Source of the DNA: Naegleria gruberi
Taxonomy: Eukaryota
Assembly: GCA_000004985.1 (NCBI GenBank)
Contig: GG739054.1
DNA: 8,828 nucleotides
Reading direction: 5' to 3' (one strand)
The stretch's first letter is position 1; every line of letters begins with the position of its first letter. The translations under genes and the position numbers were made by a program. Shown one piece after another: positions 413 to 8,375 of this stretch. Under the pieces are notes generated by a model that searched no databases, was not told the DNA's origin, and worked only from the letters and a program-made list of their open reading frames with translations.

Positions 413-418
413 TTTATT
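413..418 (-). promoter_or_regulatory. AATAAA poly(A) signal (minus strand) overlapping the stop codon of the 414-1110 gene.
   Basis: Minus-strand 'caagAATAAActttc'. The stop TAA lies inside the hexamer. Confidence 0.4.
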
Positions 419-553
419 CTTGCTGTTGTTGGTCATCCTCTTCGAAGAGTAATTCATCTTGATCAGCTTCGTTCATATCTTCCAAGGCAAATTCGTACCT
501 TTCCAAATCTCTCTTGAGTTGGGTAGAGTTGAATCCATGAACCATTCCACATC
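414..553 (-). CDS. Exon 2 (3'-terminal) of the CxxC...CxxC zinc-binding (Yippee/Mis18-like) protein gene. It encodes ...G-CGMVHGFNSTQLKRDLERYEFALEDMNEADQDELLFEEDDQQQQE*.
   Basis: On the minus strand this is the only open frame after a 70-bp intron at 554-623 (donor G|GTAAGT, acceptor ttaaaAG|). Splicing joins 'CVG' to 'CGM', which recreates a second C-x2-C motif about 46 residues after the 'CAHC' motif. Stop TAA is at 414-416 and lies within AATAAA (413-418, minus). The C-terminus is an acidic tail. Confidence 0.6.
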
Positions 554-623
554 CTTTTAATCATCATCATAAGATATCATCAAATAATAATATTACATTC
601 CAGTGATGAAGAAGAAAACTTAC

Positions 624-1110
624 CAACACAAACATGGAGAGAAACTCCATCACCATCTGTTAATGCTGTCAGCTGTGGAGTTTGACCAGAGACTGTTCTA
701 CCATTTGGAAACTCCAAATACATGCCATCACTGTTACCATTACAAACAAAGATGAATTCGGAGCCACCACAGTGAGCACAGGTCTTGTCGGATGATGTTT
801 TGGCTGATTTTGCTTCTGTTTCGTCCGAGTCTTCACCTAAAGTGGTGGTGTTTTGATTTCTCTTTCTCTTCTTGAAAGTTTCCACATAGTCTACTGGAAT
901 AATCTTTAATGATTCATTCCTGATGGTTGAATAAATATTGGAAACACTCAGTAAATCACAATGATTGTACAGAGAGACATCATTCAGAAAATCCTTCTTT
1001 TCCAAATTGTATCTATCACAAATTCTTTCATAATTCTTGTGAATCTTTTCCAAGTCTGACTTGTAATAGTTTTTGATTAAATGTTGAAGACGAGTAGGAT
1101 CGTGAGGCAT
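624..1110 (-). CDS. Exon 1 of the CxxC...CxxC zinc-binding protein gene (MPHDPTRLQHLIKNYYKSDLEK...TCAHCGGSEFIFVCNGNSDGMYLEFPNGRTVSGQTPQLTALTDGDGVSLHVCVG).
   Basis: ATG is at 1108-1110 on the minus strand, with an A-rich pre-ATG context (acaaaATG). The frame is open for 162 codons down to a consensus 5' splice site (G|GTAAGTTTT) at 623. 'SCAHC...(46 aa)...CVGCG' resembles the two zinc knuckles of Yippee/Mis18-type domains, and the downstream 'YEFALED' recalls Yippee 'YEFATED'. The full spliced product is about 208 aa. Confidence 0.65.
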
Positions 1111-1343
1111 TTTGTTTTGTTACGTAATCAAAAGTTACTACTGTGTCCCGTTGCTTAATTTGGAAGCATCTTTTGAGGCAGGACCATTTGAATTTGGAAG
1201 TACATTCGAGGCACAAAGTAGCATTGGTCGGTTAAACTTTGCACATTCATGGATTAATTGTTTCACAAAAATCCAGTATTAAAATATAAGCAATTATTGT
1301 TCTTGAGATGTTCATTTCATTCCAAATGAACGTGAAGCGTCGA

Positions 1344-1354
1344 TGGTTTAGTGG
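1344..1354 (+). promoter_or_regulatory. Pol III A box (TGGTTTAGTGG) of the tRNA-Gly gene. The B box (GGTTCAATTCC) is split by the insertion; only GGTTCAATTgt remains contiguous at 1386-1396.
   Basis: Matches the TRGYNNARNGG A-box consensus at tRNA positions 8-18. B-box positions 61-62 (CC) are displaced about 316 bp downstream. Confidence 0.6.
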
Positions 1355-1387
1355 TAGAATACGGCGTTGCCATCGCCGTGACCCGGG

Positions 1388-1394
1388 TTCAATT
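1388..1394 (+). repeat. Left copy of the 7-bp target-site duplication (TTCAATT).
   Basis: Identical to 1704-1710. Both copies correspond to the tRNA T-loop. Confidence 0.6.
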
Positions 1395-1446
1395 GTATGT
1401 TTGAATGTTCCATATATAGTAAACCGTCTCCCGTTACCCAATTTCA

Positions 1447-1460
1447 TTTTTTTAAAAAAA
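1447..1460 (+). terminator. Internal T7 run (1447-1453) followed by A7 (1454-1460) inside the insertion. It is a potential premature pol III terminator for transcripts started at the disrupted tRNA promoter.
   Basis: 'tttttttaaaaaaa'. A run of four or more T residues on the coding strand terminates pol III. The run lies about 110 nt downstream of tRNA position +1. Confidence 0.35.
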
Positions 1461-1506
1461 TTAAAAAATTTTAAATGCGTCGACCAGTTTATAACACACA
1501 TACAAC

Positions 1507-1540
1507 ATTCCCAAAAAGGAAAAGCGACTCCCGGTATCAA
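1507..1540 (+). repeat. Internal copy ('unit A') of the element-3'-end/tRNA junction motif ATTCCYAAAAAGGAA-N7-TCCCGGT. The second copy ('unit B') is at 1688-1717.
   Basis: 1507-1521 attcccaaaaaggaa vs 1688-1702 attcctaaaaaggaa (14/15 identical). After a 7-nt divergent spacer, 1529-1535 tcccggt vs 1711-1717 tcccggt (7/7). Both are followed by TTAAT-containing AT-rich sequence, and each is near a taaatattaaata-like motif. Confidence 0.5.
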
Positions 1541-1703
1541 ATAATTAATATTAAATACATTTATTGTTGTTGTTCTTGAATGGTACCTTTCCAAATATGG
1601 TGAATCGACTCACGGGTACCCTACTTCAACACATTTACACGTTGTTCATTATTCAATATTGTAAACTATTTAAATATTAAATATAATATTCCTAAAAAGG
1701 AAT

Positions 1704-1710
1704 TTCAATT
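1704..1710 (+). repeat. Right copy of the 7-bp target-site duplication (TTCAATT).
   Basis: Identical to 1388-1394 and directly followed by the tRNA T-stem 3' half, CCCGG. Confidence 0.6.
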
Positions 1711-1736
1711 CCCGGTCGACGCAGTCATAACATTAA

Positions 1737-1913: not shown

Positions 1914-2011
1914 ATGAAACGAGAACTTTTTACTTCCTTACCTCCAGAAATTCTTCTCTTGATAATGAAGTTTATTAGGAATGATCAAGATGATGATTTG
2001 GATATTCTTGG
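1914..2011 (+). CDS. Candidate exon 1 of an F-box / Rab-like gene (MKRELFTSLPPEILLLIMKFIRNDQDDDLDILG...). The 3' boundary is uncertain: the donor could be at 2012 (GG|GTATCA) or at 2027 (AT|GTTTAA).
   Basis: ATG is in an A-rich context (aaaaaaaaATGaaa). 'LPPEILLLIMKFI' is a typical F-box core (LPxEIL..I..F.). The continuous frame stops at 2094-2096. To reach the long downstream frame a GT-AG intron must end at AG 2114-2115. Donors at 1970, 2012 or 2027 all satisfy the phase; 2012 keeps most of the F-box. Confidence 0.4.
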
Positions 2012-2115
2012 GTATCATTGGGATATGTTTAATATGCAATGCATATGCAGGATCTTGATGATTATTTTGATGAGTTTTGGTGGAATTATTTCATGATGAA
2101 ATTTAAATTGTTTAG

Positions 2116-2507
2116 ATATGAATGTGATGTGGACAAGGAATTGGACATGGAAACCTGGAAAGATGTACAGAATTTGAAACAGAAAAAGGAAATGAAGGAT
2201 ACACTCTATTTCAGACAACACCATCATGAGTTTGAAGCAATTTACAAAATTCTTTCCAATCCAAAGGTTTCAATGCGAAGAAAAGTTTTAATTTCGTGCA
2301 TGAAGAGAAAATTAAGGATGAAATCCAAACCAGAAAAGGAAATGTTTGCTCTTCTTTTGGGAATTGACAATGTTGGAAAGAGGTGTATTGTGAGGCGAGT
2401 TGCTGATGGATTATTTGATAGATCGCCTAATAGGAAGATATTGTCTTCAAGGAGGATAAAATTAGAGATTGATGGTGTAGAATTGACTATTAGAGTTAAA
2501 GAACTAG
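2116..2507 (+). CDS. Exon 2 of the F-box / Rab-like gene: a linker plus the N-terminal half of a Ras/Rab-like GTPase domain (...EMFALLLGIDNVGKRCIVRRVADGLFDRSPNRKILSSRRIKLEIDGVELTIRVKEL).
   Basis: The frame is open from 2033 to 2518; the acceptor is 'ttgtttAG|' at 2115. It aligns with the Rab core KLLLIGDSGVGKS.LL.RF..D.F......TIGVDF..K.I..DG...KLQIWDTAGQE. Here the equivalent is LLLGIDNVGKRCIVRRVAD..F...IKLEIDGVELTIRVKEL. The P-loop ends GKR rather than GK[S/T], and WDTAGQ is replaced by VKELD. 'AG|GTACGA' at 2508 is a donor placed just before an in-frame TAA at 2519. Confidence 0.55.
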
Positions 2508-2558
2508 GTACGAAAATATAATTTGAATGTAATTTTAACATTCTAATAATGGAAAAAG

Positions 2559-2724
2559 ATTATTATGAAGTGCAAGACGAAAAGGAAAAAAGAGAAGAAG
2601 AAGTTAGGAAAATGTGTACGGAACAGTCGTGTTTCGTGCTTGTTTGTAGCTTGGATCAAAAGGATTCAGTCCAAAGTTTAAACAAGATTCTTTGTGATAT
2701 AATTCGTTTTAAAAAACGAAACTC
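2559..2724 (+). CDS. Exon 3 of the F-box / Rab-like gene (...YYEVQDEKEKREEEVRKMCTEQSCFVLVCSLDQKDSVQSLNKILCDIIRFKKRN...). It is truncated by the assembly gap.
   Basis: A 51-bp intron at 2508-2558 (GTACGA...aaaaAG) restores the frame across the stop at 2519-2521. 'CFVLVCSLDQKDSVQSLNKILCDIIRF' aligns with the Rab '[27 protein letters not shown]' segment (beta4-alpha3). The G4 and G5 motifs would lie in the gap. The exact acceptor is uncertain (first AG is 2557-2558; alternatives are 2570 and 2576). Confidence 0.45.
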
Positions 2725-5700
2725 NNNNNNNNNNNNNNNNNNNNNNNNNNNNNNNNNNNNNNNNNNNNNNNNNNNNNNNNNNNNNNNNNNNNNNNNNNNN
2801 NNNNNNNNNNNNNNNNNNNNNNNNNNNNNNNNNNNNNNNNNNNNNNNNNNNNNNNNNNNNNNNNNNNNNNNNNNNNNNNNNNNNNNNNNNNNNNNNNNNN
2901 NNNNNNNNNNNNNNNNNNNNNNNNNNNNNNNNNNNNNNNNNNNNNNNNNNNNNNNNNNNNNNNNNNNNNNNNNNNNNNNNNNNNNNNNNNNNNNNNNNNN
3001 NNNNNNNNNNNNNNNNNNNNNNNNNNNNNNNNNNNNNNNNNNNNNNNNNNNNNNNNNNNNNNNNNNNNNNNNNNNNNNNNNNNNNNNNNNNNNNNNNNNN
3101 NNNNNNNNNNNNNNNNNNNNNNNNNNNNNNNNNNNNNNNNNNNNNNNNNNNNNNNNNNNNNNNNNNNNNNNNNNNNNNNNNNNNNNNNNNNNNNNNNNNN
3201 NNNNNNNNNNNNNNNNNNNNNNNNNNNNNNNNNNNNNNNNNNNNNNNNNNNNNNNNNNNNNNNNNNNNNNNNNNNNNNNNNNNNNNNNNNNNNNNNNNNN
3301 NNNNNNNNNNNNNNNNNNNNNNNNNNNNNNNNNNNNNNNNNNNNNNNNNNNNNNNNNNNNNNNNNNNNNNNNNNNNNNNNNNNNNNNNNNNNNNNNNNNN
3401 NNNNNNNNNNNNNNNNNNNNNNNNNNNNNNNNNNNNNNNNNNNNNNNNNNNNNNNNNNNNNNNNNNNNNNNNNNNNNNNNNNNNNNNNNNNNNNNNNNNN
3501 NNNNNNNNNNNNNNNNNNNNNNNNNNNNNNNNNNNNNNNNNNNNNNNNNNNNNNNNNNNNNNNNNNNNNNNNNNNNNNNNNNNNNNNNNNNNNNNNNNNN
3601 NNNNNNNNNNNNNNNNNNNNNNNNNNNNNNNNNNNNNNNNNNNNNNNNNNNNNNNNNNNNNNNNNNNNNNNNNNNNNNNNNNNNNNNNNNNNNNNNNNNN
3701 NNNNNNNNNNNNNNNNNNNNNNNNNNNNNNNNNNNNNNNNNNNNNNNNNNNNNNNNNNNNNNNNNNNNNNNNNNNNNNNNNNNNNNNNNNNNNNNNNNNN
3801 NNNNNNNNNNNNNNNNNNNNNNNNNNNNNNNNNNNNNNNNNNNNNNNNNNNNNNNNNNNNNNNNNNNNNNNNNNNNNNNNNNNNNNNNNNNNNNNNNNNN
3901 NNNNNNNNNNNNNNNNNNNNNNNNNNNNNNNNNNNNNNNNNNNNNNNNNNNNNNNNNNNNNNNNNNNNNNNNNNNNNNNNNNNNNNNNNNNNNNNNNNNN
4001 NNNNNNNNNNNNNNNNNNNNNNNNNNNNNNNNNNNNNNNNNNNNNNNNNNNNNNNNNNNNNNNNNNNNNNNNNNNNNNNNNNNNNNNNNNNNNNNNNNNN
4101 NNNNNNNNNNNNNNNNNNNNNNNNNNNNNNNNNNNNNNNNNNNNNNNNNNNNNNNNNNNNNNNNNNNNNNNNNNNNNNNNNNNNNNNNNNNNNNNNNNNN
4201 NNNNNNNNNNNNNNNNNNNNNNNNNNNNNNNNNNNNNNNNNNNNNNNNNNNNNNNNNNNNNNNNNNNNNNNNNNNNNNNNNNNNNNNNNNNNNNNNNNNN
4301 NNNNNNNNNNNNNNNNNNNNNNNNNNNNNNNNNNNNNNNNNNNNNNNNNNNNNNNNNNNNNNNNNNNNNNNNNNNNNNNNNNNNNNNNNNNNNNNNNNNN
4401 NNNNNNNNNNNNNNNNNNNNNNNNNNNNNNNNNNNNNNNNNNNNNNNNNNNNNNNNNNNNNNNNNNNNNNNNNNNNNNNNNNNNNNNNNNNNNNNNNNNN
4501 NNNNNNNNNNNNNNNNNNNNNNNNNNNNNNNNNNNNNNNNNNNNNNNNNNNNNNNNNNNNNNNNNNNNNNNNNNNNNNNNNNNNNNNNNNNNNNNNNNNN
4601 NNNNNNNNNNNNNNNNNNNNNNNNNNNNNNNNNNNNNNNNNNNNNNNNNNNNNNNNNNNNNNNNNNNNNNNNNNNNNNNNNNNNNNNNNNNNNNNNNNNN
4701 NNNNNNNNNNNNNNNNNNNNNNNNNNNNNNNNNNNNNNNNNNNNNNNNNNNNNNNNNNNNNNNNNNNNNNNNNNNNNNNNNNNNNNNNNNNNNNNNNNNN
4801 NNNNNNNNNNNNNNNNNNNNNNNNNNNNNNNNNNNNNNNNNNNNNNNNNNNNNNNNNNNNNNNNNNNNNNNNNNNNNNNNNNNNNNNNNNNNNNNNNNNN
4901 NNNNNNNNNNNNNNNNNNNNNNNNNNNNNNNNNNNNNNNNNNNNNNNNNNNNNNNNNNNNNNNNNNNNNNNNNNNNNNNNNNNNNNNNNNNNNNNNNNNN
5001 NNNNNNNNNNNNNNNNNNNNNNNNNNNNNNNNNNNNNNNNNNNNNNNNNNNNNNNNNNNNNNNNNNNNNNNNNNNNNNNNNNNNNNNNNNNNNNNNNNNN
5101 NNNNNNNNNNNNNNNNNNNNNNNNNNNNNNNNNNNNNNNNNNNNNNNNNNNNNNNNNNNNNNNNNNNNNNNNNNNNNNNNNNNNNNNNNNNNNNNNNNNN
5201 NNNNNNNNNNNNNNNNNNNNNNNNNNNNNNNNNNNNNNNNNNNNNNNNNNNNNNNNNNNNNNNNNNNNNNNNNNNNNNNNNNNNNNNNNNNNNNNNNNNN
5301 NNNNNNNNNNNNNNNNNNNNNNNNNNNNNNNNNNNNNNNNNNNNNNNNNNNNNNNNNNNNNNNNNNNNNNNNNNNNNNNNNNNNNNNNNNNNNNNNNNNN
5401 NNNNNNNNNNNNNNNNNNNNNNNNNNNNNNNNNNNNNNNNNNNNNNNNNNNNNNNNNNNNNNNNNNNNNNNNNNNNNNNNNNNNNNNNNNNNNNNNNNNN
5501 NNNNNNNNNNNNNNNNNNNNNNNNNNNNNNNNNNNNNNNNNNNNNNNNNNNNNNNNNNNNNNNNNNNNNNNNNNNNNNNNNNNNNNNNNNNNNNNNNNNN
5601 NNNNNNNNNNNNNNNNNNNNNNNNNNNNNNNNNNNNNNNNNNNNNNNNNNNNNNNNNNNNNNNNNNNNNNNNNNNNNNNNNNNNNNNNNNNNNNNNNNNN

Positions 5701-6083
5701 NNNNNNNNNNNNNNNNNNNNNNNNNNNNNNNNNNNNNNNNNNNNNNNNNNNNNNNNNNNNNNNNNNNNNNNNNNNNNNNNNNNNNNNNNNNNNNNNNNNN
5801 NNNNNNNNNNNNNNNNNNNNNNNNNNNNNNNNNNNNNNNNNNNNNNNNNNNNNNNNNNNNNNNNNNNNNNNNNNNNNNNNNNNNNNNNNNNNNNNNNNNN
5901 NNNNNNNNNNNNNNNNNNNNNNNNNNNNNNNNNNNNNNNNNNNNNNNNNNNNNNNNNNNNNNNNNNNNNNNNNNNNNNNNNNNNNNNNNNNNNNNNNNNN
6001 NNNNNNNNNNNNNNNNNNNNNNNNNNNNNNNNNNNNNNNNNNNNNNNNNNNNNNNNNNNNNNNNNNNNNNNNNNNNNNNNNNN
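2725..6083. other. Assembly gap of 3359 N. It hides the 3' ends of two convergent genes (2116+ on the plus strand, 6794- on the minus strand).
   Basis: An uninterrupted run of 'n'. The non-round length suggests a gap size estimated from pairing or mapping information. The ORFs 2549..6118(+), 2656..6114(-) and most of 2709..6788(-) in the supplied track are artefacts of translating N as X. Confidence 0.99.
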
Positions 6084-6794
6084 CTTCACACCCTTTGTTG
6101 CAACCAGTGAACAATTAGAAACGAGGAGATTGACGCTTGTCCACGATTTAATGTCTGCCTTCTTCATCTTAATCTTTCTATAATAGCAAATTCCATACTT
6201 TTTCTTTGGTTCTTTGAGTTTGATAATTTGAGAAGTGATATTCTTTCCAGCAACTTCAAACATGACAAGTCTTGTTCTAAATTCTGAAGTGTCCAAAACT
6301 GAAATCTTGAATCTCTTTCCAGCTGAAATTTTAATATAGAGTTGAGTATTGTCACCGTGAGGTGAGAATGGGAAGACAATAGTCTTTTTTGATGGATCCA
6401 CATACTTGTTTGGAGATGTGATTTTGCGAGTGAGGTCAGCAAAAGAAATGTGAGCACTTGCTGATACGATAATACAGCACTCTTTAGCTCCCTTGAATGG
6501 TTTGAATCCAGATAAGCATTTCAAGACGATGTGCTTTCCAAGCCATGAACCTGATGATTTCAGCTCAACAAGAGAAAGTATGGCAGTGCAAACCTTTTCA
6601 TTTCTCAAAGTATCTTCATCCCAAATTTCAACAAGACAATCTCTGGTTCCATCCACATCTGTACAGAACAAATCAAATTCCCAATCAGGATTTGGGTCAT
6701 CTTGCACACATTTTGTTTTAAATGTTTTGGTTTGTCCTCCAATAATCGGAACAATAACAACAGCATAGGCATCAATCGAAGATAACAAATCGGC
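6084..6794 (-). CDS. Exon 2 of a C2-domain protein gene (ADLLSSIDAYAVVIVPIIGGQTKTFKTKCVQDDPNPDWEFDLFCTDVDGTRDCLVEIWDEDTLRNEKVCTAILSL... continuing into the gap). Downstream sequence is of unknown domain.
   Basis: A 237-codon open frame on the minus strand in AT-rich DNA. C2 hallmarks: a hydrophobic beta-strand start, 'K...DPNPDWEFDLF' (cf. C2 'TLNPVWNE.F.F') and 'LVEIWDEDTL' (cf. 'L.V.V.D.D'). It is preceded by the acceptor 'catttAG|' at 6795 and is in phase with exon 1. Confidence 0.7.
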
Positions 6795-6912
6795 CTAAAT
6801 GATGATCATAAATTCAATGCAATTAATAACAACAACATCATCATATGGTAAACAAATCAATAGAGAATTTTAAAACATTAAAAAATCAAATTGTGATGAA
6901 ATTTCTTCTTAC

Positions 6913-6966
6913 CTTTGGAAGATCTCTTCCGCAATGCAAAGTAAGATTAAGGCTAAGCGAGTTCAT
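6913..6966 (-). CDS. Exon 1 of the C2-domain protein gene (MNSLSLNLTLHCGRDLPK), the first beta-strand of the C2 domain.
   Basis: ATG is at 6964-6966 (minus) in an A-rich context (ataaaaaATG). The 18 codons end at a consensus donor AAG|GTAAGA. The 118-bp intron 6795-6912 ends in TTTAG. The join gives '...LTLHCGRDLPKADLLSSIDAYAVVIV', a canonical C2 N-terminus (L.V.V..A..L...D). Confidence 0.6.
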
Positions 6967-7598: not shown

Positions 7599-8375
7599 AT
7601 GACCTCCACTTCTTACTCAACTAGTTTAATCGGCTATAGCGCACTCTGGCAATTACTTAAAGGTTTATTGGTCTCCGTGTGGACATGTGTTGTGATGTTG
7701 GCTGAACAATCGTATGAAGGTTGTGTGCTGGATTTGAATGGATACTTTTTAATGCATGAGAATATACTTGATTTACATAATTTATATGAGAGGGACAATC
7801 AGAGTGTTGGCATTCCTGCTGTTGCTTCTTCTAAGGGTGTTGCTGCCTTACCAAAACCAATTCTCGTCAGAACCAAATCCATTTCCATCTCTCCAATATC
7901 AAAGGTTGCTTCCTCTTCAAAACTTCAACCAATCCTGATGAAACAAGCTTCCAATCTTCACTTGACCATTCCAATTATTTCGGTACAACAAGAAGTAGAG
8001 CCATCGATTCCAAAACTCAAAAAGAGTCCTTCCAAGTCAATTGTCCACACTACCAACACAAGATTCCATCAAATTACTCCACCAATTTCTCCTCTTGGCA
8101 ACTTTACATTCCCAGCTGTGAGCTCCAATTCACAAACTCTGTTAGTTCCTCAATTCGAGCTTTTGAATACTCCACCTCCACAACAATCTGCCACCAATCA
8201 AGATTTCAAATCCACTTCTTTCCATACTACTAGTAAGAAGAGACTTTCATTTTCTGCCTTCTCATACGAATTTAATTCAACAACAACAACAAGAGGTAGA
8301 GCTGCCACCATTCAAACTATTGTTCCAAAGCCAGTCATTGAAATCAAACGAATCAAATCCAACTCTCACATGTAA
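7599..8375 (+). CDS. Hypothetical Ser/Thr/Pro-rich protein of 258 aa with an N-proximal hydrophobic segment (SALWQLLKGLLVSVWTCVVMLA). No recognisable domain.
   Basis: A single 777-nt ORF, unusually long for AT-rich DNA. Its composition is rich in TCN/ACN/CCN codons, which is atypical of random AT-rich sequence. The stop at 8373-8375 abuts AATAAA (8375-8380). A TATATAAA motif lies only 3 nt upstream of the ATG, so the true start could be a downstream ATG (e.g. Met33), or the TSS may lie further upstream. Confidence 0.55.
   Translation: MTSTSYSTSLIGYSALWQLLKGLLVSVWTCVVMLAEQSYEGCVLDLNGYFLMHENILDLHNLYERDNQSVGIPAVASSKGVAALPKPILVRTKSISISPISKVASSSKLQPILMKQASNLHLTIPIISVQQEVEPSIPKLKKSPSKSIVHTTNTRFHQITPPISPLGNFTFPAVSSNSQTLLVPQFELLNTPPPQQSATNQDFKSTSFHTTSKKRLSFSAFSYEFNSTTTTRGRAATIQTIVPKPVIEIKRIKSNSHM

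What the first reader, a model, noticed from the sequence alone, without database searches (positions are those of the whole stretch)
1914..2724. Unusual domain combination: N-terminal F-box followed by a Rab-like GTPase domain with degenerate G1/G3 motifs
Exon 1 encodes MKRELFTSLPPEILLLIMKFI..., which has the F-box LPxEIL core. The long downstream frame encodes a clear Ras/Rab fold: LLLGIDNVGKRCIVRRVAD..F, then IKLEIDGVELTIRVKEL, then CFVLVCSLDQKDSVQSLNKILCDIIRF. This aligns segment by segment with Rab beta1 through alpha3. The phosphate-binding loop ends GKR instead of GK[S/T], so the Mg2+-coordinating hydroxyl is lost. The switch-II DTAGQ is replaced by KELD(YY), so the catalytic Gln and Gly60 are absent. 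This predicts a nucleotide-hydrolysis-dead, possibly nucleotide-free, 'pseudo-GTPase'. If the F-box exon is really joined, the protein would be an SCF substrate adaptor that uses a Rab-like fold as its recognition module. I do not recognise this as a described architecture.
Basis: partly seen in the sequence, partly recalled or inferred. Interest (0 to 1): 0.6.

Follow-up and report, generated by a model that had tools for sequence, protein, structure and literature searches.

The report
Decaying Naegleria Ras paralogue, F-box-like head
This is a frame-broken, probably dead copy of a Ras-type GTPase gene from a large family specific to the amoeba Naegleria, whose members carry an F-box-like N-terminal extension; GTPases fused to F-boxes have already been described in Naegleria, so the find is ordinary.

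Summary
A 98%-identical metagenome contig (L001) spans the window's gap. It shows one ancestral exon running from ATG 1914 to 2507, a 51-nt intron (2508-2558), then a complete Ras-type domain. The reconstructed protein scores Pfam Ras E=2.9e-11, with G4 NKID and G5 TSAL. The window has lost 13 nt at about 2049-2052, which breaks the frame. L001 carries different lesions: a 1-nt deletion, a frameshift at G5 and a stop inside the CaaX box. pN/pS between the two copies is about 1.2. The protein is colinear with Naegleria gruberi 'Ras' paralogues listed in Herman et al. 2021 (PMC8296547, Table S8). These share LPxEIL, NFQS, FNEFWW and LKRKxLL motifs, then a Ras domain and a CaaX box. That paper already reports F-box plus GTPase fusions (Rab, Rho, Ran, Galpha) and birth-and-death decay in Naegleria. 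The domain is Ras/Rap-like, not Rab-like. F-box identity is only suggestive: all Pfam hits are sub-threshold, and hhalign gives 81-85% probability with confidence on helix 1 only. Verdict: a probable pseudogene of a known lineage-specific family, of low interest.

The parts
1914..2050 (+). First part of the ancestral exon 1, in frame 1: MKRELFTSLPPEILLLIMKFIRNDQDDDLDILGYHWDMFNMQCICR. This is the start of the family's N-terminal extension.
   Evidence: Translation. Colinear with N. gruberi Ras paralogues (A1). The window's pre-GTPase region scores 16-21 bits against paralogue N-termini, versus a maximum of 11.6 bits for 200 shuffled queries.
1938..1973 (+). LPPEILLLIMKF, the F-box-like helix-1 motif. 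It is the only segment that matches F-box profiles.
   Evidence: Pfam F-box-like E=0.035-0.056 on the L001-based N-terminus. hhalign against an F-box alignment gives 81-85% probability, with confident columns only here.
2049..2052 (+). Site of a 13-nt deletion relative to L001 (AGGAGCATTTCGG lost, flanked by AGGA microhomology). It shifts reading from frame 1 to frame 3.
   Evidence: Window/L001 alignment. With the 13 nt present, the L001 reading CICRSISEDHDDYFDEFWW aligns without a gap to the paralogues, so the deletion is the derived state.
2051..2507 (+). Remainder of the ancestral exon 1, in frame 3. It encodes YFDEFWWNYF (2063-2092), a helical linker with RRKVLISCMKRK (2276-2311), G1 GIDNVGKR (2360-2383), and the strands up to IKLEIDGVELTIRVKEL (2456-2506).
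   Evidence: tblastn of N. gruberi paralogues hits window 2045-2719 (E=4e-5 and 1.5e-4).
2012..2115 (+). It is in frame and has GT..AG ends, but it would excise the conserved FNEFWW motif. Rejected as the native structure.
2508..2558 (+). A 51-nt GT..AG intron that splits the codon of the G3 aspartate.
   Evidence: Splicing restores LDYYE/G, which aligns to LDTAG of Rap and Ras. The intron is conserved in L001 with one substitution.
2559..2724 (+). Exon 2. It encodes a degenerate switch II (D)YYEVQ (2561-2572), CFVLVCSLD (2630-2656) and helix alpha3, then runs into the assembly gap.
2725..6083 (.). Assembly gap (N run). It hides the 3' half of the gene (G4, G5, C-terminal helix and CaaX) and probably a downstream DUF4116 gene.
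   Evidence: L001 positions 1085-2654 supply the equivalent sequence.

Best explanation
The locus is a frame-disrupted, most likely non-functional copy of a Naegleria-specific Ras-family paralogue.

The intact family has this layout: a helical N-terminal extension that starts with an F-box-like LPxEIL helix, followed by NFQS and FNEFWW motifs; a helical linker (LKRKxLL); a Ras-type GTPase domain; a short C-terminal helix; and a CaaX prenylation box.

In this copy a 13-nt microhomology-flanked deletion uncouples the first 45 codons from the rest. The GTPase motifs are also degraded: P-loop GKS to GKR, switch-I Thr lost, DTAGQ to DYYEV.

Shown here: family membership, the lesions, and the near-neutral substitution pattern.

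Inferred: the gene arose in the birth-and-death expansion of Naegleria GTPases and is now decaying. Intact relatives may act as membrane-anchored, GTPase-coupled SCF adaptors if their extension really is an F-box.
For: - L001 is 98% identical over 1041 aligned columns (998 identical, 22 substitutions plus indels). It shows a continuous ORF across the window's frame break, and places the break at a 13-nt deletion.
- L001 carries different lesions: a 1-nt deletion in helix 1, a frameshift between TSALK and LNETKVF, and a stop inside the CaaX box (TCI*).
- Between the two copies there are 11 nonsynonymous and 2 synonymous differences, giving pN/pS of about 1.2.
- One of those differences destroys the DxxG glycine in the window (GGA to GAA).
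- The reconstructed protein scores Pfam Ras 43.6 bits, E=2.9e-11.
- phmmer scores are 28-67 bits against the eight N. gruberi extension-bearing Ras paralogues that matched, versus 17 bits against canonical N. gruberi Ras. The alignment is colinear over the full length.
- Herman et al. 2021 describe expanded, divergent, Naegleria-specific GTPase clades with a conserved N-terminal extension (an F-box in some), disrupted copies and birth-and-death evolution. Table S8 lists the paralogues.
- A second contig from the same metagenome sample as L001 encodes a protein with 336 of 341 residues identical to N. gruberi XP_002682439.1*. This ties the locus to N. gruberi or a very close relative.
Against: - The window's 3' half is in a gap, so only one hard lesion is seen in the window itself.
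- The locus borders an assembly gap, where consensus errors are more likely.
- ATG 2039 still opens a 160-codon ORF that could give an N-terminally truncated protein.
- The in-frame GT..AG pair 2012/2115 could in principle rescue a shortened product.
- pN/pS rests on only 13 substitutions.
- The pseudogene-rich clades that the paper describes in its text are Rab-like, not the Ras rows.
Confidence: 0.7

Rival explanations
1. A functional three-exon gene (1914-2011, 2116-2507, 2559 onward) encodes an F-box fused to a Rab-like pseudo-GTPase, which acts as an SCF substrate adaptor.
For: The 2011/2116 join is in frame and has GT..AG ends. An LPxEIL motif is present. G1 and G3 are degenerate.
Against: - The proposed intron removes YFDEFWWNYF, which holds the one invariant position (F59) and a nearly invariant one (W60) of the family's extension. 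The product would keep only helix 1 of any F-box.
- In L001 the same stretch is plainly coding and continuous.
- No significant F-box hit was found.
- The domain is Ras/Rap-like, not Rab-like.
- Substitutions are near neutral.
Confidence: 0.07
2. A functional but N-terminally truncated Ras-like protein is made from ATG 2039. It would lack the LPxEIL helix and be a stand-alone atypical GTPase.
For: There is an open frame 2039-2507 followed by a good intron and exon 2. The region from 2116 onward shows no frameshift between the window and L001 up to the gap.
Against: - pN/pS is about 1.2 over the same region.
- The P-loop Ser/Thr, switch-I Thr, G60 and Q61 are all lost.
- The sister copy has a frameshift at G5 and a truncated CaaX box.
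- No family member in Table S8 has a complete corrected model that starts at this point. The entries that begin at or near FNEFWW (XP_002669178.1*, flagged as a putative pseudogene, and ACER01000490.1**) are partial.
Confidence: 0.13
3. The gene is intact in the organism, and the frame breaks are assembly or sequencing artefacts next to a gap.
For: The locus abuts a 3359-nt N-gap. L001 comes from a metagenome assembly.
Against: - A 13-nt loss flanked by 4-nt microhomology is a typical real deletion, not a base-calling error.
- The two independent assemblies carry different lesions, three of them in L001.
- The excess of amino-acid changes agrees with relaxed constraint.
Confidence: 0.1

Closest known systems
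Naegleria gruberi Ras-family paralogues with an N-terminal extension (Herman et al. 2021, PMC8296547, Table S8 'Ras' rows; for example XP_002681395.1*, XP_002673059.1*, XP_002677816.1*, XP_002682439.1*, and the entry from unassembled reads)
   Same: The layout is colinear: LPxEIL helix, NFQS(L/I), (Y)FNEFWW, LKRKxLL linker, Ras domain with CFVLVC and (V/A)xNKIDL, ETSAK-type G5, a C-terminal LLK.V..D helix, and a CaaX box. Scores are 28-67 bits, against 17 bits for canonical Ras. Several members also have a degenerate switch II.
   Different: - This copy is frame-broken.
- It has GKR in place of GK[S/T].
- It has a 27-residue insertion in the linker.
- In L001 the CaaX box is truncated.
- Its sequence is not among the corrected models printed in Table S8.
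Naegleria F-box plus GTPase fusions (divergent Rab-like clades, some Rho/Rac, Ran and Galpha proteins; Herman et al. 2021, Additional file 4)
   Same: The same organism group and the same theme: an N-terminal F-box or F-box-like extension ahead of a divergent small GTPase domain, lineage-specific expansion, disrupted copies, and a CaaX box in one subgroup.
   Different: Those proteins have F-boxes detectable by SMART, Pfam or CDD, and their GTPase domains are Rab, Rho, Ran or Galpha. Here the domain is Ras-type. The extension is not flagged as an F-box in Table S8 and fails Pfam thresholds.
RhoBTB (Rho domain plus BTB domains, Cul3 adaptor) and Rab40 (Rab plus SOCS box, Cul5 adaptor). Named from my own knowledge; RhoBTB is also cited in Herman et al.
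   Same: An atypical small GTPase domain fused to a cullin-RING-ligase adaptor module. This is what the intact family would work like if its extension is an F-box.
   Different: The adaptor module is different (BTB or SOCS box rather than F-box), the domain order differs, and the GTPase subfamily differs. No homology of the extra domains was tested or is expected.
Canonical Ras/Rap GTPases (for example Rap2A 1kao, Rap1b 3brw, R-Ras 2fn4)
   Same: They are the best solved-structure matches over the whole G domain (E=7e-5 to 3e-4). NKxD is kept, and D57 of DxxG is kept.
   Different: - S17 is replaced by R, T35 is lost, and Q61 is replaced by V.
- G60 is replaced by E in the window.
- SAK is replaced by SAL.
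- There is a 146-residue N-terminal extension.

Membership tests
Ras family small GTPase (Pfam PF00071) | Profile match above the Pfam gathering score | tested here: met
   The window fragment alone scores 17.7 bits, below the 21.6 cut-off. The gene completed from the 98%-identical L001 scores 43.6 bits, E=2.9e-11, covering profile positions 3-155 of 162. The L001 C-terminal half alone scores 28.2 bits.
Ras family small GTPase (Pfam PF00071) | G1 P-loop GxxxxGK[S/T] | tested here: not met
   The motif is GIDNVGKR (2360-2383). The Mg2+-binding Ser/Thr is replaced by Arg in both copies.
Ras family small GTPase (Pfam PF00071) | G2 switch-I Thr, and G3 DxxG with the catalytic Gln | tested here: not met
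   YDPTIED aligns to PNRK(I/M)LS, with no Thr. G3 is DYYE-V in the window and DYYG-V in L001. Q61 is replaced by V.
Ras family small GTPase (Pfam PF00071) | G4 NKxD and G5 SAK | tested here: inconclusive
   Both lie in the window's gap. L001 has NKID and TSAL(K), followed by a frameshift.
Naegleria Ras paralogues with an N-terminal extension (Herman et al. 2021, Table S8) | Colinear extension motifs: LPxEIL, NFQS, FNEFWW, LKRKxLL | tested here: met
   Alignments A1 and A3. The window's pre-GTPase region scores 20.9, 17.5, 17.0 and 16.4 bits against paralogue N-termini, versus a shuffle mean of 3.1, SD 1.8 and maximum 11.6.
Naegleria Ras paralogues with an N-terminal extension (Herman et al. 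2021, Table S8) | GTPase domain closer to these paralogues than to canonical Ras | tested here: met
   phmmer gives 67, 49, 45, 39... bits against the paralogues, versus 17 bits against canonical N. gruberi Ras XP_002675003.1*.
Naegleria Ras paralogues with an N-terminal extension (Herman et al. 2021, Table S8) | C-terminal CaaX box | tested here: inconclusive
   In the gap for the window. L001 ends ...GYTCI*, so the Cys is in place but a stop follows two residues too early.
Naegleria Ras paralogues with an N-terminal extension (Herman et al. 2021, Table S8) | Host is Naegleria | tested here: inconclusive
   The evidence is indirect. L004, from the same metagenome sample as L001, encodes a protein with 336 of 341 residues identical to N. 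gruberi XP_002682439.1*. The window is 98% identical to L001. GC content is about 32%. The record name of the window is not available.
F-box (Pfam PF00646 / PF12937, clan F-box) | Significant profile match | tested here: not met
   - Window-based model: F-box-like E=1.4.
- L001-based N-terminus: E=0.035-0.056.
- Nine family members: best E=0.005-0.04, all below the gathering score.
- Full-length paralogues: E about 0.3.
- Family consensus: F-box_4 0.003, F-box-like 0.0048, PRANC 0.0071, F-box 0.037.
- PDB profile search: FBXO42 at E=1.4.
F-box (Pfam PF00646 / PF12937, clan F-box) | Three-helix domain of about 45 residues: LPxE(I/L)L helix 1, then helices 2 and 3 with the conserved (V)CxxW and LW | tested here: inconclusive
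   Helix 1 matches: hhalign gives 81-85% probability, P about 1e-5, with confident columns only in LPxEIL..IL.F. NFQS and FWW fall under CK.W and LW only after a 13-16-residue insertion, and with low confidence. The AlphaFold2 single-sequence model of a paralogue N-terminus is all-helical but has pLDDT 50, and the Foldseek matches are meaningless.
F-box (Pfam PF00646 / PF12937, clan F-box) | Binds Skp1 and assembles into an SCF ligase | not testable with these tools
   This needs co-folding with Naegleria Skp1 or a binding assay.
   The top PDB matches are Rap2A, Rap1b and R-Ras; Rabs rank lower. The nearest paralogues are curated as Ras and end in CaaX.

The most novel reading that the evidence does not exclude
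The conserved N-terminal extension of this whole Naegleria Ras-paralogue clade, which Herman et al. do not flag as an F-box, is a genuine but divergent F-box with an enlarged helix 1-helix 2 loop. Intact members would then be prenylated, membrane-anchored SCF adaptors whose substrate choice or activity is gated by a Ras-type (often hydrolysis-dead) G domain. [quoted passage not shown] The window copy would be a dead relic of that system.
Probability: 0.35. Interest if true: 0.35.

Novelty: new member of a known kind. Interest (0 to 1): 0.15.

Why it matters
The locus matters little in itself. It adds one more decaying copy to the already documented birth-and-death expansion of Naegleria small GTPases.

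Its use is as a caution. An in-frame GT..AG pair can hide a frameshift in a pseudogene. 'No homologues' in prokaryote-centred protein collections says nothing about a protist gene.

One modest open point remains: whether the Ras-clade extension is a true F-box. If it is, GTPase-coupled ubiquitination in Naegleria would cover all the major small-GTPase families.

Tried and rejected
- Homology searches with the window-based and reconstructed proteins found only the near-identical metagenome ORF P0001, or nothing: 5.8e9 clusters and 1.84e9 representatives. A family profile (A3) retrieved only P0002 and P0001, both from one metagenome, and no N. gruberi RefSeq protein. These collections therefore evidently lack that proteome, and I dropped the 'orphan' reading.
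- The JGI metagenome scan returned only two loci, each matching 42 residues of the G domain at 44-47% identity. The one whose matching ORF was readable (L003) encodes an ordinary Rab; neither is a specific relative.
- An exact look-up of the neighbouring 258-aa ORF found no record.
- An AlphaFold2 single-sequence model of a paralogue N-terminus gave pLDDT 50. The Foldseek PDB search then returned only E>2 helical-repeat noise, so it is unusable as an F-box test.
- PDB sequence searches with the N-terminus gave no F-box hit.
- A literature search for the sample accession, and two generic searches, found nothing.
- I considered a third intron near G5 in L001 (gttaaaac...tttcag). I rejected it because it would remove G5, whereas a 1-nt frame correction restores TSALK-LNETKVF, which aligns with SAKxxxN...F.

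Full report
**What is in the window.**
- The window is AT-rich eukaryotic DNA (GC about 0.27-0.39 outside the gap) with a 3359-nt N-gap at 2725-6083.
- Frame 1 from ATG 1914 reads MKRELFTSLPPEILLLIMKFIRNDQDDDLDILGYHWDMFNMQCICRILMIIL... and stops at 2094.
- Frame 3 is open from 2039 to 2521. It reads ...DLDDYFDEFWWNYFMMKFKLFRYECDVDK...LLLGIDNVGKRCIVRRVADGLFDRSPNRKILSSRRIKLEIDGVELTIRVKEL.
- A GT..AG intron at 2508-2558 then joins to DYYEVQDEKEKREEEVRKMCTEQSCFVLVCSLDQKDSVQSLNKILCDIIRFKKRN, which runs into the gap.
- Taken alone, the window fragment gives only a sub-threshold Ras hit (E=0.003, 17.7 bits, cut-off 21.6) and no meaningful F-box hit (E=1.4).

**A near-identical contig fills the gap and corrects the gene model.**
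- The only database relative, P0001, lies on a 2654-nt metagenome contig, L001 (sample ERZ929261). L001 is 98% identical to the window over 1041 aligned columns, including the non-coding flank.
- Two indels separate the copies in the 5' region.
  - L001 has 13 extra nucleotides (AGGAGCATTTCGG, flanked by AGGA in both copies) where the window reads TGC|AGGATC (about 2049-2052). With these 13 nt, the window's frame 1 runs straight into the long frame-3 ORF...MFNIQCICRSISEDHDDYFDEFWWNYF....
  - L001 in turn lacks one T in TTTAT(T)AGG, which breaks its own frame after MKFI.
- Comparison with paralogues (below) shows that the 13-nt-plus state and the T-plus state are both ancestral.
- So the ancestral gene had one continuous exon from ATG 1914 to 2507, and each copy carries a different frame-breaking lesion.
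But it would excise YFDEFWWNYF (2063-2092), which contains the one invariant position (F59) and a nearly invariant one (W60) of the family's extension. It is not the native structure.

**The 3' half, seen through L001.**
- After FKKRN, L001 continues SFSIVFVINKIDLKRGEIEISIENAQISIENLIILHRLQNASIVKTSALKTK*. So G4 is NKID and G5 is TSAL.
- Shifting the frame by 1 nt after TSALK gives LNETKVFQDSILLEWNRTIDPIKIMTEALEKDCKILTGYTCI*. This aligns to helix alpha5, the C-terminal helix and the CaaX region of the paralogues. L001 stops two residues short of a complete CaaX box.
- L001 therefore carries three lesions.
- The reconstructed 350-residue protein scores Pfam Ras 43.6 bits, E=2.9e-11.
- Its best solved relatives are Rap2A, Rap1b and R-Ras, with Rabs ranking lower.
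- The HMMER alignment places LDYYG (L001) or LDYYE (window) under LDTAG. So D57 is retained, and G60 is intact in L001 but changed to Glu in the window by a single GGA-to-GAA change. Q61 is Val, the P-loop Ser is Arg, and the switch-I Thr is absent.

**What family it belongs to.**
- Herman et al. 2021 (BMC Biol 19:142, PMC8296547) analysed Ras-superfamily GTPases of Naegleria gruberi and N. fowleri. Additional file 4 makes three relevant points:
  - Divergent Rab-like clades that lack relatives outside Naegleria have a conserved N-terminal extension, which is identifiable as an F-box in some members.
  - The F-box is the most frequent extra domain, found together with Rab, Rho, Ran and Galpha GTPase domains.
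- Table S8 prints corrected N. gruberi models. Many 'Ras' rows share the same layout: LPxEIL..ILSF, NFQS(L/I), YFNEFWW, LKRKxLL, G1, CFVLVC, xxNKIDL, ETSAK, LLK.V..D, CaaX.
- The reconstructed protein aligns colinearly with them over its whole length (A1). It scores 28-67 bits against the eight extension-bearing paralogues that matched, versus 17 bits against a canonical N. gruberi Ras.
- The window's own pre-GTPase region scores 16-21 bits against paralogue N-termini, while 200 shuffled queries reached at most 11.6 bits.
- tblastn of two paralogues hits window 2045-2719 directly.
- The host is tied to Naegleria indirectly. A second contig from the same sample (L004, carrying P0002) encodes a protein with 336 of 341 residues identical to N. 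gruberi XP_002682439.1*.
- The gene downstream in L001 is a DUF4116-repeat protein.

**Is it alive?**
- Between the window and L001, the 251 comparable codons differ at 11 nonsynonymous and 2 synonymous sites. That gives pN/pS of about 1.2, with small counts.
- Divergence is about 1.7% in the coding sequence, against about 3% in the upstream non-coding flank.
- This sits alongside independent frame-breaking lesions in both copies and the loss of four catalytic or ligand residues. The most economical reading is a pseudogene, or a gene in the course of dying.
- Caveats: the window shows only one hard lesion, it borders a gap, and ATG 2039 still opens an ORF.

**Is the extension an F-box?** The evidence is consistent but weak.
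- Among nine family N-termini, F-box-clan models are the recurrent top Pfam hits: F-box-like in 4 of 9, F-box in 2 of 9, and F-box-like_2 in 1 of 9. All are sub-threshold, with best E values of 0.005-0.04.
- Full-length paralogues give Ras at 50-125 bits but F-box only at E of about 0.3.
- A majority consensus of eleven N-termini hits only F-box-clan models: F-box_4 0.003, F-box-like 0.0048, PRANC 0.0071 and F-box 0.037. Every hit is confined to helix 1.
The rest of the domain aligns colinearly only after a 13-16-residue insertion, and with low confidence.
- PDB sequence and profile searches found nothing significant.
- An AlphaFold2 single-sequence model was too poor to use (pLDDT 50).
- Herman et al. 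do not flag these Ras rows as F-box.
- I therefore call the extension 'F-box-like', with membership inconclusive.

**Comparison and verdict.**
- The thing works like, or worked like, the Naegleria GTPases with N-terminal F-box-type extensions. It is a member of the Ras-paralogue subgroup of that expansion.
- By analogy with RhoBTB and Rab40 (my own knowledge), intact members might couple a G domain to a cullin-RING ligase. That step is inference.
- The details are not. The splice model is wrong, the domain is Ras-type rather than Rab-type, the F-box is unproven, the architecture is already published for Naegleria, and this copy is probably dead.
- Novelty: a new (pseudo)member of a known kind. 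Interest: low.

Noticed in passing
window 1337-1723 (+); insertion about 1395-1710: A tRNA-Gly(GCC) gene is split by an insertion of about 309 nt in its T-arm. TTCAATT is present at both junctions (1388-1394 and 1704-1710), which may be a 7-nt target duplication. L001 lacks the insertion. The insert contains four ~36-nt units (spacing 100/81/100), each ending in a T-arm-like ..CTCCCGGT. ARAGORN finds no tRNA in the window, but it finds tRNA-Gly(gcc) once the insert is removed in silico.
   Followed up: partly
window 2049-2052 and L001 399-411: The 13-nt deletion that breaks the gene is flanked by a 4-nt direct repeat (AGGA). This is the signature of microhomology-mediated deletion rather than a sequencing error.
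   Followed up: yes
L001 1473-2654 (+), probably inside the window gap: The gene downstream of the Ras paralogue encodes a DUF4116-repeat protein (Pfam E=2e-30, five repeats). It is truncated by the contig end. Table S8 of Herman et al. lists an N. gruberi Rab5 paralogue fused to domains abbreviated 'DUF41, STYKc'.
   Followed up: no
window about 414-1110 (-), intron about 554-623: A two-exon gene with a canonical GTAAGT...AG intron. It encodes a ~220-aa protein with CxxC...CxxC spacing (CAHCGG ... CVGCG) and an acidic tail. It has no significant Pfam hit.
   Followed up: no
window 6084-6960 (-): A gene encoding an N-terminal C2 domain (Pfam C2 E=5.7e-6). It emerges from the gap on the minus strand and probably has a short 5' intron near 6800-6910.
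   Followed up: no
window 7599-8375 (+): A 258-codon Ser/Thr/Pro-rich ORF with no Pfam match and no exact record in the gene-position index.
   Followed up: partly
databases: The large protein collections returned only ORFs from one metagenome (ERZ929261 / ERR1078381), even for a profile built from N. gruberi RefSeq-derived sequences. They seem to lack that eukaryotic proteome, so negative homology results for this window are uninformative. That metagenome evidently contains an N. gruberi-like amoeba.
   Followed up: partly
L004 945-2228 (+): This is the orthologue of N. gruberi XP_002682439.1*, another extension-bearing Ras paralogue. Here it is intact and shows 5 amino-acid differences in 341, against 13 in 251 for the finding's gene. 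That is consistent with constraint on this paralogue but not on the finding's gene. Its intron sits in switch I (after GLTY), not at G3.
   Followed up: partly
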